A stretch of 64,000 nucleotides of DNA from NCBI RefSeq assembly GCF_009914755.1, contig NC_060944.1; one strand, given 5' to 3'. Below are positions 36,292 to 44,399 of the stretch, one piece after another; positions within the stretch are counted from its first letter, which is position 1, and every line of letters begins with the position of its first letter. The notes below the pieces were generated by a model. The model did not search any database. It was not told the DNA's origin and saw nothing but the letters and a program-made list of their open reading frames with translations. The translations under genes were made by a program, and so were the position numbers. The stretch is from the human T2T-CHM13v2.0 reference genome, Homo sapiens.

Positions 36292-39130
36292 CCACATGCA
36301 TCTCTTTAATTAGGGAGGAAAGTGTTTCCCTGAAACTGCCTGAAGATATCCCCTTACAAGTCCCAAGTAAAAACTGGGTCATGGGAGCCCTCTAGACAGC
36401 ATCTGCTACACCCCATTTCTAGTTCATAAGATCCACTGATGTCCCAGTGGATTAGGCATTGGGTCACTTGGAAACTACTCCCCTCTATCCCTACCTCTCC
36501 TAACACAGTCTTTAAGTACCTCTGTTGGTTATCTTTTTAAGAAACCTACTTGCCCCTTCATTCCTTATTCTACCACATGTCCACAGAAGCTCTTGCCTCC
36601 CCACTATTGTCCCTGTCAACCTTCCTACCCTCTTCCCTTCACTGCTACCTCCCAACTTTTATATCTTTACTTTCACATTGTGACAGATGATAATGTTGAC
36701 ATTCTATTCTGCAACCATAATAAAATTCAGGTCAATACAAAAGTTGAATATTAATGAAAACTAGAAAGATAACATTTTCATTATTTAAGTATACCATATA
36801 TTTCCTCTGGGTATCTATATATGTAAGTTTTTAGAAACGTCTAGAAAAGTCCACATTGAGCCCATTACTGTGGTTACCTCTGGAGAGGAGGAAGGGAATA
36901 GGGTGGCAGTGGGTGGCCAAAAGGGACTCCAGCTTCATCTGCAATGTTCTCTTTTTTAAAAAAGGGGAACGTATTCATGTTTTGCTTGTGTCATTCGACT
37001 TCAATTTTTTAAAAAATTACTATTTATTTTCAGCCAATAACGTGGGCTCCGTGTGTTTGGATGTGCTTGCATGTTTGTGCCCAGGGAGGAGGAATATTTA
37101 CTTTGTGTGTGCCTGTGAATGAAGTAGAGTGATTAGTAAGCAGATGAAAAAGAAATGTAGCAAGCAAAAGCAAAACAAAAAAGGGGGCTGGAGAAAACTA
37201 ATTCACAACAATAATAAAAAGTATAGGAATAAACCCATTAGGAAATGGGCAAGTTCTTTATGGGGAGAACAACAGTGCATGAGTGAAGGACATACAAGAT
37301 AATAAGAATAAACGTAGAGCTCTACTGTATTCATGAATTCAAAGGCTCGGTATTGTATTGATGTCAATTTCTCCAACTTGACAAGCTGGCTTTACAATTC
37401 ATGTGGAGGAGTTAGTGTGCGGTACTAGTTAGCTAAGAGAGCTGAGAAGGAAGCACAACGAAACATGGCATTTGACTTCACAGATACCAAAAGGTGGGAC
37501 AGCAAAGAAAACAGTCTTGTACTGAAAGGAATAAATGGATTGTTGGGAAAAACAGGGGCTTCAGACACACCTGACTCAGAATATCAGGGAGTTTTACTTC
37601 AGGTCAGAGGGGAAAGGAAGAACTAGTCAACCCCTCATACTGCAATAATTGGCTGCCCGTTTGGAGAAAGGTTAGATCATATATCAATATGATAATCAAA
37701 ATATATTCCAGATGCATAAAGAACCAAATAAAAACAAAATTATAAAATTATTAGAAAAGAAGAAATAATATATTTAAATCTTAGGAGTAGGGAAGGACTA
37801 AACATGGTATCTGTATAAAAAAGGATCAAAGGAAAAGATTGATAAATTGGATTATGTCAAAACTAATAACTTCTAACAAAAGATTCTACAAAGAGTTAAA
37901 GGCAATGACAAGCTGGAAGAAAATATTTGTCACATATCTACAAAAGATCAATATCCAGATTATATTACAAAACTCCACAAGCCAGTGGGATAAAGACAAC
38001 CTAATGCTTAAAATGAGAAAAAATAACAGGCAATTCAGAAAAGAGAAAATACAAATGCTCAATATACATATGAAAATCTCACAAGCAAACAGGAAAATAC
38101 AAATTTTAAAAAGGATTCAATTTTTCACCCATGAGATTGGCAAATATTTAAAACAACCGCCTATGGGTGTGGGGATTACAGCCCTCTCATACCCTCTGGC
38201 TGGAAGCTTAAATGGTACAGAAATCATGGAGGACAGTGGTAGTATCTGCTAAAACTAAAACTGTGGACATATTAAGACCCAACATTCCATTTCCCAATCA
38301 CTCCCAGAGATATCCCACCACAAAGGAACATGCAATGTGGTTTCTGCAGCACTGCTCATGATGGAGGAAAGAAAAAGAAGCAATTAAATGTCCATGGAGC
38401 TTACAGAAGATAAAATGTGGTACATTCATGGGAATGAATACAACATAGCTATTAAAGGCAAAAGCAAGCTATGTGTAGCAATAGGAGTATATTGTAAAAA
38501 TGTAACACTGAGTGAAAAAAACCTGCAGCTTATAGTAAAATCGCTATAATGTGGTATGACTCATTGAAAATACATCAGGACTATGTGTTACTATGGATGG
38601 AGATACATAAAACTGTGGAGGGGGTGGGAAATGAGGACTCCAGAGGGTGGCCAAAGGGGACTACAGTTATATTCATATTGTCCTACTTTTAAAAAGGAGA
38701 ATGTATGCACACTTTACTTGTTTAATTAAAGTATAATTTGAAAAGATTCTAATTTGTTTTCAGCCAATTATGCTGCCTCTGTGCGTCTGGCTGTGCTCAA
38801 ATTTTTGTGCCCAGAGAGGGAGAACGTTTACTTTGTGTGTGTCTGTGAATCAAGCACAGTGATTAGTAAACAGGTTGAAATGGGATATGAAAAAACAAGG
38901 GCCAAACAAATAAGAGCAGAGGGCAACCTATTCACAGTTAACAGCAAAACCTATAATATACCTAGGAATGAATTCAACAAGAAATATGTCAGACTTTAAC
39001 CAGAGAAAACCATAAAACTGTCCTGAAAGATGTAAAAGATGACCTGAATTGAGAATAGAGCAATGTGCCGTGGTAGGAAGACTCTATATGATAAAGATGT
39101 CAGTTTTCCTTAAATTTATCCATAAACTCA

Positions 39131-39432
39131 GGCCAGGTGCAGTGGCTCATGCCTGTAATCCCAGCACTTTGGGAGGCTGAGGGGAGTGAATCACGAGGTC
39201 AGGAGTTCAAGACCAGACTGGCCAGCATGGTGAAACCCAGTCTCTACTAAGAATACAAAAATTAGCCAGGCATGGTGGCGCACGCCTGTAGTCCCAGCTA
39301 CTTGGGAGGCTGAGGCAGGAGAATCACTTGAACTGGGGAAGTGGAGGTTGCAATAAGCTGAGATCATGCCACTGCACTCCAGCCTGGGGAACAGAGCGCG
39401 ACTACATCTAAAAAAAAAAAAAAAAAAAAAAA
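39131..39432 (+). mobile_element. Alu
   Basis: TSD ttatccataaactca. Confidence 0.95.
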
Positions 39433-41425: not shown

Positions 41426-41722
41426 GGCTGCGCACGGTGGCTCATGCCTATAATCCCAGCACCTTGGGAGGCCGAGATGGGTGGATCACTTGAGGTCAGG
41501 AGTTTGAGACTAGCCTGGCCAACATGGTGAAACCCTATCTGCACCAAAAAATACAAAAATTAGCCGGGCATGGTGGCGCGTGCCTGTAGTCCCAGCTACT
41601 CAGGAGGCTGAGGCAGGAGAATCACTTGAACCTGGGAGGCGGAGGTTGCAGTGAGCGGAGACTGCACCACTGAACCCCAGCCTGGGCGGCAGAGCAAGAC
41701 TCCGTCTCAAAAAGAAAAAAAA
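41426..41722 (+). mobile_element. Alu
   Basis: Dimer with A-tail. Confidence 0.95.
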
Positions 41723-44399
41723 GGAATAAAGGCCTTGGGGGAAGGGTGGAGTGCTTATCTTATCAAGCCATAAGACACTTTATTAAGCTTTGCTCATTAA
41801 TATGTACTATTGGCTCAGAAATAGACAAATAGATCAACAGAACCGGAGTCTAGACAGGGAATTGAGAGAAAAGATGGTGTTGGAACAATAAATGGTGCTT
41901 AGCAAACTGGATATCTGGAAAAAGAGCAAATTAGAGCTCTGTGTCACACCATACATGAAAACACATCTCAGATGGGTTAAAGATTTAAACATTTCAAACA
42001 ACTATAGACGTTTTAGATGCAAACACACAATGTATATACACTGCGGTGGGGACCTGCTTTCATCAGCAGTGCGGCAGGACACTTAAGCATCCAGTAGGGT
42101 TCCAGGCCGACCTCACCTCCCACCTTTGGAAAGGGCCTGCCGAGCATCTCCATCTGGACCTCACAGACTCCTCTTCCTCCTTCTCTCCAGCTCCACCTGG
42201 TCCTGGGAAGAGGGACTGCCACACCGGATGGACTGAGGTCTGAAGCCAGCTCCTGCCACTTGTGCTCTGTGTCAATAAGGCATCTCCCTCTCTGGCTTCC
42301 AGTTCCTCCTCTATGAGTAGGTAATGGGGTTACGCTCCATTTCTTGTGGGGAAATGTGAAGCTCGTATGAGATGATCAATGTGAGCATGGATAAATGGCA
42401 TGGAGCTTACAAGGATGAGGGGAGCAGATACCTCTACTTTGTCTTGATCCACTCCCCATAACCCCTGCTACGCAAGACTTAACATCCAATTCTTCTTCCT
42501 TGCATTGTAACTTCTGGATAATTGTCGTAGAATCTTTTTGGTCAAAAGAAGTTTGAGTGTTGACTTCTGACATTTGATTCCAAGGCAGAAAATACTGATT
42601 CGGCACCCAAGGAGCTTACTACCTGTTGCTAGGTGCTGAGAAACACACAAAATAATAAGACATAATCCCAGCCAAAAGACAGGATAAAACTGGTGCTAAT
42701 TAGAACTATAGTCGGTACACAGGTCAGATAAAAGCTCCCAAAAGAACATGGAGATCAAGTTACTCTCTAAAAGGTACATAATTTAATTTTGCCCCATTCA
42801 GTCAAATACACATTATTGCCCCAAACTAATTTATCCACCTCCATAGTTGATCCCAGCCCCTTTGGGAGCTCATCTCACTAATTGTCTCCATCCCTAATCG
42901 CTCAATTACTCAGGCTCCTTATCCTCAGAATGTTCATCTGCCAGCATTTCTCTCTCTTTTAAGATTAAAAGTCCTGGATCTTGCTGCTTCTTTCCTTAAT
43001 CGACTCCCACCCAAACTGCTCTGGCAGAGATTCTCAGAGGTCCCCCAATGGCCCCTTGGGGTGCTCATCAGCAGGGCCACCATGCTACCCAATTCCAGAG
43101 GCACCATGGAGGTTGTGCAGGTGCACACTGGAGTAGTTCAGGGATTGCCCTGGTCCTCCTGACCTCTCTGCACACACCCACTGCTGACCACCCTGTCTTT
43201 CTGCTGAGACACCTCCCGGCTCTTTCTTTTCAGTGCTCTCAGAGGATTCTTCTTCTCTTTTCTAATCTCCAAATGTTGGTGCTCCTTGGGCTTGATTTTT
43301 TTGTCCTCAGCCATCCCCTCGCCTAAAAATGCCCCAGAAGCCTGTCAACATCTGGATCCATATTTCCATTTGGGAGCCCCCTGGAGCCCTGGACTGGTCT
43401 CCATAATTTCTCACCTTGTGCTCTGGAGCTGTGCCTTCAGCTGTTTCTTCTCCATCTGCATTGGGATGTCTCAGCTTTTACCACTGGACTTGGGGTCTAC
43501 CTTACAGACCTGGCCCCTTTCCAGGGCTCCCCAGCTCTGAAAATGGCATTGCCATCTCACCAGTAAGGCAAACCAGAAGCTCAGGGGTCATCCTGAACGC
43601 TGCCCTCTTCCAGCCCCTCTTCATTCCATCCAGCACCAAGACTAACCAGAATATGCAGATCATGTCCAAATCCTGTCCACTACAACAAAGCTTCCGAACT
43701 AGCCTCCCTGTCTACCCATGCTGCTCTAATGATTTCTCCACAGAACAGCCAGAGTCCCAGGCAGATTACAGCAACATACCAGGGCAGGTCACATCCCCTG
43801 CTTCCCTCGCTCTCAGGATGTTGGCAGGAGCTCAGCCCTGGTCTCCAATGCTCTGTATAGCCAGAACTGCTTGTCTCTCTGGTCTCACCTCTCCTTCCTC
43901 TCTAGTCAGGCCCTTTGCTCAGAATGCTTTCCAATTTGCTTTGTCGTCAACTTTGTTCTCTTCTTTCTATCTTGGTTTGGAGGATCACCTCCTCAGGGAA
44001 GCCTCCCAGAGTCAGATGAGGGCAGGTCCCCTGGTGGCACACCCTTCAGTACTCAGTACCATTCCTTCAGAGTGCCTATCAGTGTTGGAAATTGTACATT
44101 TACATATGTGATTATCTGACTATGTCTTTCTCCCCTACTACCATGAGAACAGGGATTCTGACTATTTTAATTCATTCACCCAAGTATCCACAGTGCTAGG
44201 CACACTGCTGGGCTGGGCACACAATTAGGTGCTAAAAGAGAATTATGTGGAATGTATCAACTTTCGTATTAAACAATGGATGCTTAACACTTTGGGAGCT
44301 GAGCCTATACACCTGCTCATCTTTCCTAGCCTCAGCCTCCCAGCCCCTACCCTTCACATCTCCAAATCTCCCTTCTGGACTCCTTAGAGGACTCCTAGT

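What the first reader, a model, noticed from the sequence alone, without database searches (positions are those of the whole stretch)
36860..42040. Ancient tandem triplication in which a 110-bp non-L1 core looks better preserved than its L1 flanks
Seen: three cores (37031-37140, 38761-38870, 40939-41047) of 110, 110 and 109 nt share TTTTCAGCCAAT, TGTGCCCAG, TGTGTGTG.CTGTGAAT.AAG and AGTGATTAGTAA. Each follows an L1ME-like 3' end and precedes L1 ORF2-like sequence. Periods are 1730 and 2178 bp, the second including a ~300-bp Alu. The L1 portions appear more diverged and gapped. Each core begins after an acceptor-like TTTTCAG and ends at GTAAG/GTAAA. Inference: a repeated functional element (lncRNA exon, small RNA or enhancer module) amplified next to an imprinted gene pair. 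I do not recognise it as a described element.
Basis: partly seen in the sequence, partly recalled or inferred. Interest (0 to 1): 0.75.

Follow-up and report, generated by a model that had tools for sequence, protein, structure and literature searches.

The report
Triplicated conserved module between ancient L1s
About 20 kb from the imprinted human gene NNAT, a 110-base stretch found nowhere else in our genome searches sits three times in a row between decayed jumping-gene remnants and has changed less than half as much as they have, so it is likely a small regulatory element preserved by selection, though its function is untested.

Summary
Three cores (37031-37140, 38761-38870, 40939-41047) are 79%, 74% and 74% identical with one 1-nt gap. 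The L1 ORF2 bodies between them are only 54-60% identical, no closer than unrelated old L1 copies, and their best 110-column windows reach 62-71%. The core matches no Rfam family, no outside L1 copy, and nothing else in the genome searches, whose sensitivity is limited. All three L1 bodies start at the same L1 position after the core, so the unit has one origin. The likeliest history is unequal crossing-over between two then-young L1ME4-like copies flanking the core, perhaps about 150 million years ago, followed by moderate constraint on the core (about 0.45 of the flanks' divergence, in blocks). I favour a cis-regulatory module for NNAT/BLCAP (0.40). Newly noticed: on the minus (BLCAP) strand the best-kept block is a branch point plus splice acceptor in all three copies (rival, 0.20). 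Late gene conversion (0.22) is not excluded. No cross-species, expression or chromatin data were available. Verdict: a real but modest undescribed paralogous conserved element.

The parts
36877..37015 (+). L1 3' end only (piece 0; L1ME4a-like, subfamily name recalled), ending in an A-rich tail; may reach further upstream
   Evidence: aligns to the 3' ends of units 1 and 2 from 36877-36880; its terminal motif has 5 dispersed copies elsewhere; no ORF2 profile hit upstream
37027..37140 (.). core copy 1
37200..38745 (+). 5'-truncated L1 body 1: ORF2 3' half 37216-38429, then 3' UTR
   Evidence: profile positions 19-1390, E 1.7e-76; start of homology
38757..38870 (.). core copy 2
38925..40925 (+). 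5'-truncated L1 body 2: ORF2 38942-40531, then 3' UTR; interrupted by an Alu
   Evidence: profile positions 8-200 and 183-1362
39131..39432 (+). Alu inserted later into body 2, with a 15-nt target-site duplication (39116-39130 and 39433-39447)
40935..41047 (.). core copy 3 (1-nt deletion relative to copies 1 and 2)
41090..42026 (+). L1 body 3, same start as bodies 1 and 2, lacking its 3' part; Alu at about 41424-41734
   Evidence: profile positions 11-316 and 318-659
37113..37138 (-). copy 1: branch-point-like TACTAAT (37138-37132) and CAG acceptor; first exon base would be 37112
   Evidence: acceptor score at the 98.9th percentile of minus-strand AG sites; geometry test
38843..38868 (-). copy 2: same branch-like heptamer and acceptor; first exon base would be 38842
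   Evidence: 94.6th percentile
41020..41045 (-). copy 3: same branch-like heptamer and acceptor; first exon base would be 41019
   Evidence: 96.7th percentile
37023..37028 (-). AATAAA in copy 1; AACAAA and AATGAA at the same place in copies 2 (38753-38758) and 3 (40931-40936); weak poly(A)-signal candidates

Best explanation
This is a head-to-tail triplication of one unit, a 110-bp non-L1 core followed by a 5'-truncated old L1, in which the core has changed less than half as much as the L1 and is likely a selected cis-regulatory module (predicted transcription-factor sites) acting on NNAT or BLCAP.

Shown: three units, one shared core-L1 junction, lower core divergence (JC 0.25-0.31 vs 0.56-0.72), and conservation in blocks.

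Inferred history: two L1ME4-like copies inserted in the same orientation on either side of the core. While they were still nearly identical, unequal crossing-over between their 3' ends duplicated core plus L1, then repeated. The last body later lost its 3' part, and two Alus inserted. This explains the L1 3' end before core 1 and why the bodies are as far apart as unrelated copies: the event had to happen soon after insertion.

Inferred function: the invariant blocks (CCAAT/CAATTA-like left block, TGTGCCCAG, TAATCA-containing right block; factor names recalled, not tested) would bind factors, and three copies would add up as a redundant enhancer 20-24 kb upstream of NNAT.
For: Rate gap and best-window controls.

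Invariant columns are clumped: 37 of 44 in the right block and 9 of 9 in the middle motif, against 14 of 36 and 4 of 12 in the stretches between. With the terminal blocks removed, permutation p=0.0014 and 0.0027 for two statistics; neutral simulations with rate variation give p=0.002-0.007.

Single origin: L1 homology starts at profile positions 409-428 after each core, while 10 of 13 outside copies tested continue upstream into ORF2. Gaps are shared by units and rare outside: one in all three units vs 1 of 12 outside; two in units 1 and 2 vs 0 of 25 and 1 of 23.

Literature: PMC7586669 (passage) dates L1ME4a activity to about 150 Mya. PMC3022651 (passage) says tissue-specific Nnat enhancers lie well upstream of its promoter.
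Against: No RefSeq enhancer row covers the cores (hub table). No full NFI site: only a 2-mismatch match in copy 2, and 18 such matches in the window against 43 expected, so the mouse NFI boundary site 20 kb downstream of Blcap (PMC3610271, passages) cannot be tied to this element.

The third clumping statistic (number of runs) was not significant inside the core (p=0.13), and part of the clumping may come from alignment doubt near copy 3's gap.

Shared derived substitutions between bodies (0.64-0.91) are within the range of unrelated pairs (0.62 +/- 0.25), and one shared gap groups units 1 and 3 but not 2. The outside copies were chosen by similarity to the units and built the profile, which favours them.

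No orthologue, expression or accessibility data. Motif names are recalled.
Confidence: 0.4

Rival explanations
1. Neutral: the triplication is old, but gene conversion kept homogenising the junction region for roughly half of its history, so the core only looks constrained.
For: Core divergence of 0.12-0.19 per copy is what neutral DNA would gather in about 80-100 million years (rate recalled). Tandem copies 1.8 kb apart can convert each other. Identity is mildly raised in the neighbouring L1 3' end (JC 0.48-0.57). One indel in three cores is not clearly below what a late homogenisation would give (body about 3.0-3.6 indels per 110 nt per copy).
Against: Conversion tracts should leave evenly spread differences; here they are clumped into 8-12-nt invariant blocks. 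Identity falls back to body level within about 60 nt on either side.
Confidence: 0.22
2. RNA-level element on the minus (BLCAP) strand: each core would be a 3' splice site opening a ~110-nt terminal exon, with cleavage supplied by the antisense L1 3' end, so that three cassettes catch and end BLCAP read-through or alternative transcripts.
For: The best-kept block is TACTAAT, 20 nt, CAG in all three copies. Acceptor scores of 9.5, 6.0 and 7.4 compare with 7.5 and 8.4 for NNAT acceptors and 10.8 for BLCAP's. This geometry occurs 6 times in 474,898 nt of outside loci, or 0.003 per 110 nt (0.04 for the looser CTAAY), and the 3 cores are the only such sites among 4 TACTAAY on the window's minus strand. 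[quoted passage not shown] PMC3610271 (passage) reports an H3K36me3 domain mostly downstream of mouse Blcap.
Against: Found after the fact and counts as one ancestral event. The pyrimidine tract of copy 2 has purine changes. There is no conserved donor. Only copy 1 has a canonical AATAAA at the shared place. The left and middle invariant blocks are unexplained. RefSeq has no exon here. PMC3610271 calls the mouse region non-transcribed. The splice scores come from a simple frequency table typed from recall.
Confidence: 0.2
3. A decayed array of a plus-strand structured small RNA (H/ACA-like), as in other imprinted small-RNA arrays.
For: A right-hand hairpin with an internal loop keeps 90-93% of pairs, with 5 one-sided compatible changes. 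The majority of the three copies has ANANNA before it and ACA after it.
Against: No copy has both boxes: the H box is broken in 3 of 3 and ACA in 2 of 3. The pocket-to-ACA distance is 11 nt. There are no compensatory changes and the structure was drawn from copy 2. Folding z-scores are 0.22, -1.02 and -0.55. No relevant Rfam hit at E up to 5-10.
Confidence: 0.07
4. The core is the 5' head of an unrecognised low-copy non-autonomous L1 derivative, or a fragment of another dispersed repeat, and the units are separate insertions.
For: The bodies are no closer to each other than to outside copies. Several outside old-L1 loci also hold direct tandem pieces. The short pattern had 45 outside hits against 14 for the reversed control.
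Against: DNA searches with each core and two longer patterns gave only the 3 local copies, while a like-sized L1 3'-end pattern found 5 outside copies. None of the 25 of 45 short-pattern hits fetched resembles the core upstream (p at least 0.17). A core profile has no hit below E 0.5 in 75 outside loci. Independent insertions would not explain the core's higher identity.
Confidence: 0.06
5. The first reader's plus-strand internal exon (102 nt, TTTTCAG to GTAAG/GTAAA), non-coding or once coding.
For: Acceptors score at the 94th-96th percentile; 102 nt keeps frame in copies 1 and 2.
Against: Donors are at the 89th, 62nd and 62nd percentile. No frame is open in all three copies. Codon-position bias is weak (10:6:6). 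No CTAAY branch at a usable distance. No Pfam match in 4 of 4 open segments tested.
Confidence: 0.05

Closest known systems
Paralogous conserved non-coding elements made by local tandem duplication (general class, recalled)
   Same: Short, nearly gap-free, block-wise conserved non-coding stretch in several local copies near developmental genes.
   Different: Constraint is inferred only from paralogues; cross-species conservation and activity are untested. The spacers are old L1 bodies.
BGW motif of the eutherian Bex/Tceal/Armcx cluster (PMC7586669, passages)
   Same: A short non-repeat motif amplified together with L1ME/L1ME4a-derived sequence in early eutherians.
   Different: BGW is a ~60-bp promoter motif driving domesticated ORFs over 1.5 Mb. 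Here there is no gene or open frame, no sequence link was tested, and the array spans 5 kb.
L1-mediated unequal crossing-over (non-allelic homologous recombination; recalled)
   Same: Direct L1 repeats flank a unique spacer that is multiplied head to tail.
   Different: The event is so old that crossover points and target-site duplications cannot be read.
Poly(A) sites and terminal exons derived from antisense L1ME4a 3' ends (PMC2553571, passages)
   Same: An antisense L1 3' end lies downstream of an acceptor in the BLCAP direction.
   Different: No poly(A) site or transcript is shown here; the acceptor lies in non-L1 DNA and is triplicated.
Tandem small-RNA arrays of imprinted loci (SNORD113-116 and imprinted miRNA clusters; recalled)
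   Same: Tandem copies of a short conserved core with diverged spacers near imprinted genes.
   Different: Only three copies, no intact boxes, no Rfam match, no host transcript.

Membership tests
L1 (flanks) | homology to dispersed L1 ORF2 3' half and 3' end | tested here: met
L1ME4a subfamily (flanks) | match to the Dfam/Repbase subfamily consensus | not testable with these tools
   name recalled from the look of the 3' end; no repeat library available
L1 (core) | core is part of L1 ORF2 upstream of the body or follows the L1 3' end in other copies | tested here: not met
   no hit of an upstream-ORF2 profile on the cores; no core after 5 of 5 outside 3' ends or in 75 outside loci
dispersed repeat (core) | copies at unlinked loci | tested here: inconclusive
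   none; 0 of 25 fetched hits of 45; seeded searches miss highly diverged low-copy families
tandem duplication of one unit | shared junction and shared derived changes | tested here: met
   same L1 start after each core; shared gaps; substitutions alone were uninformative
conserved non-coding element | slower change than adjacent neutral DNA among paralogues | tested here: met
   JC 0.25-0.31 vs 0.56-0.72
conserved non-coding element | conservation between species | not testable with these tools
   no other mammalian genome is held; an exact-pattern scan of viral contigs found nothing
enhancer | open chromatin, factor binding, reporter activity | not testable with these tools
   no RefSeq functional-element row over the cores (hub table)
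NFI site | TTGGC(N5)GCCAA full site (consensus in PMC3610271) | tested here: not met
   half-site only
U2-type 3' splice site, minus strand | branch motif 17-40 nt before a YAG with pyrimidine tract | tested here: met
   3 of 3 copies; tract weak in copy 2
U2-type 3' splice site, minus strand | use in transcripts | not testable with these tools
   no RNA data
internal exon, plus strand | usable branch, acceptor and donor in all copies | tested here: not met
H/ACA snoRNA | intact H and ACA boxes | tested here: not met
   0 of 3 copies have both
H/ACA snoRNA | two hairpins supported by covariation | tested here: inconclusive
   right hairpin compatible, 0 compensatory pairs, three sequences only
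any Rfam family | covariance-model match | tested here: not met

The most novel reading that the evidence does not exclude
Three tandem splice-and-stop cassettes, each a conserved branch point and acceptor fused to an antisense L1ME4-like poly(A) region, were amplified in early eutherians, around the time NNAT appeared inside BLCAP, and capture BLCAP-direction transcripts 16-20 kb past the gene, possibly by allele.
Probability: 0.15. Interest if true: 0.6.

Novelty: new member of a known kind. Interest (0 to 1): 0.33.

Why it matters
If the constraint is real, this gives three exact, testable candidates for the distal control elements of the NNAT/BLCAP locus, which papers place only as lying 'well upstream' of NNAT. 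It also shows a way to spot selection from one genome, using the co-duplicated L1 as a built-in neutral clock. If the splice-cassette reading is right, it would add a transposon-built terminal-exon array to an imprinted nested-gene locus. If conversion explains it, it is only an old duplication.

Tried and rejected
Core as diverged L1 ORF2: a recalled resemblance of the core's end to ORF2 was not borne out by a profile of 12 outside copies.

Core as a reverse fragment of the repeat at 42560-42730: a 6-copy profile gave no hit; three other seeds found only themselves.

Known RNA families: nothing over the cores. A recalled likeness of the core's start to SNORA70 had no Rfam support. Coding exon: rejected. 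NFI boundary site: no full site. Tandem Repeats Finder does not see the array because its longest period is 500. The bacterial promoter scan is irrelevant here.

One search used a wrong gap length and is uninformative. One search was a mis-registered structure, corrected. A sequence-only model was not used further. An exact-pattern scan of viral contigs found nothing.

Literature: nine searches listed no paper describing this element. The motif search gave one unrelated paper, seen only as a listing. The BAC-transgene paper on Nnat enhancers (PMID 11476579) is not held; I saw only its title in reference lists. The supplements of PMC3610271 were listed but not read and may give the NFI site's position.
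Full report
Setting. The window is human chr20 (G000:C20:39184001-39248000). The array lies 16.5-20.5 kb past the 3' end of BLCAP (minus strand) and 20.3-24.3 kb before NNAT (plus strand). The hub's table shows no gene or functional element over it.

Anatomy. Reading left to right: an L1 3' end (aligned from about 36877), core 1, an L1 body (ORF2 3' half plus 3' UTR), core 2, a second body with an Alu, core 3, and a third body that stops about halfway through the ORF2 part and carries another Alu. 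A profile from 12 outside L1 copies shows that recognisable L1 homology begins 40-70 nt after each core at the same L1 position. Ten of 13 outside copies tested continue upstream of that point. The junction is therefore particular to this locus and arose once. Three gaps shared between units are absent or rare outside; a fourth groups units 1 and 3 only. The subfamily label L1ME4a is recalled, not tested.

Is the core better kept? Yes. Pairwise identity is 79%, 74% and 74% with one 1-nt gap; the ORF2 bodies are 56%, 54% and 60%. JC distances are 0.25-0.31 against 0.56-0.72. The best 110-column body windows reach 68%, 62% and 71%, and 0 of 300 single-age neutral simulations matched the core. 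The bodies are no closer to each other than to outside copies (means 57-59%; n=27, 27, 12). Those copies were picked by similarity and built the profile, so this comparison leans towards them, but the direct aligner agrees. Conservation comes in blocks: 8 of 9, 14 of 36, 9 of 9, 4 of 12 and 37 of 44 invariant columns from left to right. Two clumping statistics stay significant without the terminal blocks; the number of runs does not (p=0.13).

Is the core a repeat? DNA searches with all three cores and two patterns of 34 and 27 nt with 3 mismatches returned only the local copies. A control pattern from the L1 3' end found 5 outside copies, none followed by the core. A 23-nt pattern gave 45 outside hits against 14 for the reversed control. 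I could fetch 25 of the 45, and none resembled the core upstream. A core profile found nothing below E 0.5 in 75 outside loci, 233,699 nt. These searches are seeded and weak for very old low-copy families: one DNA search with an L1 3' end found only itself. Uniqueness is likely but not proved.

How it arose (inferred). A unique spacer between two same-direction L1 copies is the substrate for unequal crossing-over, which needs near-identical repeats and so must happen soon after insertion. That predicts what is seen: an L1 3' end before the first core, identical junctions, and bodies as diverged as unrelated copies. PMC7586669 (passages) puts L1ME4a activity at about 150 Mya. That NNAT is eutherian-specific is recalled. 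Loss of a fourth core from a longer array would look the same.

What the core does (inferred). Block-wise constraint at about 0.45 of the flank rate is typical of cis-regulatory DNA. PMC3022651 (passage) places tissue-specific Nnat enhancers well upstream of the promoter. I give the enhancer-module reading 0.40. Against it, there is no annotated enhancer and no full NFI site, so the mouse NFI boundary 20 kb downstream of Blcap (PMC3610271, passages; supplements not read) is not linked by sequence.

The right block reads, in BLCAP direction, as a branch-like heptamer, 20 nt, and a CAG acceptor in all three copies. That geometry is seen 0.003 times per 110 nt in outside loci, or 0.04 with a looser motif. 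[quoted passage not shown] I also recall, without a call, a long Ensembl BLCAP isoform that spans this region. This pattern was found after the fact, a homeodomain-type TAAT site would mimic it, and it leaves two blocks unexplained: 0.20.

Late gene conversion predicts even differences and fits the clumping poorly, but cannot be excluded without orthologues: 0.22. An H/ACA-like RNA has a compatible right hairpin but broken boxes in every copy, no folding excess and no Rfam match: 0.07. The plus-strand exon has weak donors and no usable branch point: 0.05.

Literature. Nine searches listed nothing on this element; most subscription papers are not held. I read passages of PMC7586669, PMC5476424, PMC2666296 (plus section 5), PMC3022651, PMC2553571, PMC2836564, PMC5753468, PMC12758399, PMC3610271 and PMC8386078, and none mentions it in those passages. 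PMC8386078's CTCF site is upstream of BLCAP, on the other side.

Verdict. The feature is real and apparently undescribed: an ancient triplication with a core under probable moderate constraint (about 0.7 summed over the functional readings). It belongs to a known kind, and its function is open between an enhancer module and a splice/termination cassette. Interest 0.33.

Noticed in passing
window 26170-26791 and 45681-46304: Inverted pair 95% identical over 625 nt, 19 kb apart; the left copy overlaps RefSeq enhancer 26547-27192. Probably two young insertions or a local inverted duplication.
   Followed up: no
window 8987-9104, 13804-13959, 19388-19539, 26587-26746, 42564-42722, 45726-45884: Six copies of a ~160-nt dispersed repeat, unrelated to the core; family not identified.
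   Followed up: partly
L033, L051, L052, L061, L085: Several outside old-L1 loci hold two or three direct, overlapping-range L1 pieces within 3 kb, so tandem old L1 pieces are not rare; none carries the core.
   Followed up: partly
window 40565-40690: GC-rich stretch inside the 3' UTR of L1 body 2 with no clear counterpart in body 1; probably an insertion that adds to the longer period.
   Followed up: no
window 36955-37012, 38685-38742, 40865-40920: The last ~58 nt of this L1 3' end are well kept locally and in outside copies, though those copies were found by this motif.
   Followed up: partly
window 35700-36470: Sequence upstream of the array looks like an old MaLR-type LTR split by an Alu (recalled resemblance; no second copy in the loci held).
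   Followed up: no
window 59202-59289 and 59750-59837: Inverted pair 80% identical over 88 nt between BLCAP exon 2 and its intron, a candidate double-stranded structure for the A-to-I editing of BLCAP (editing recalled).
   Followed up: no
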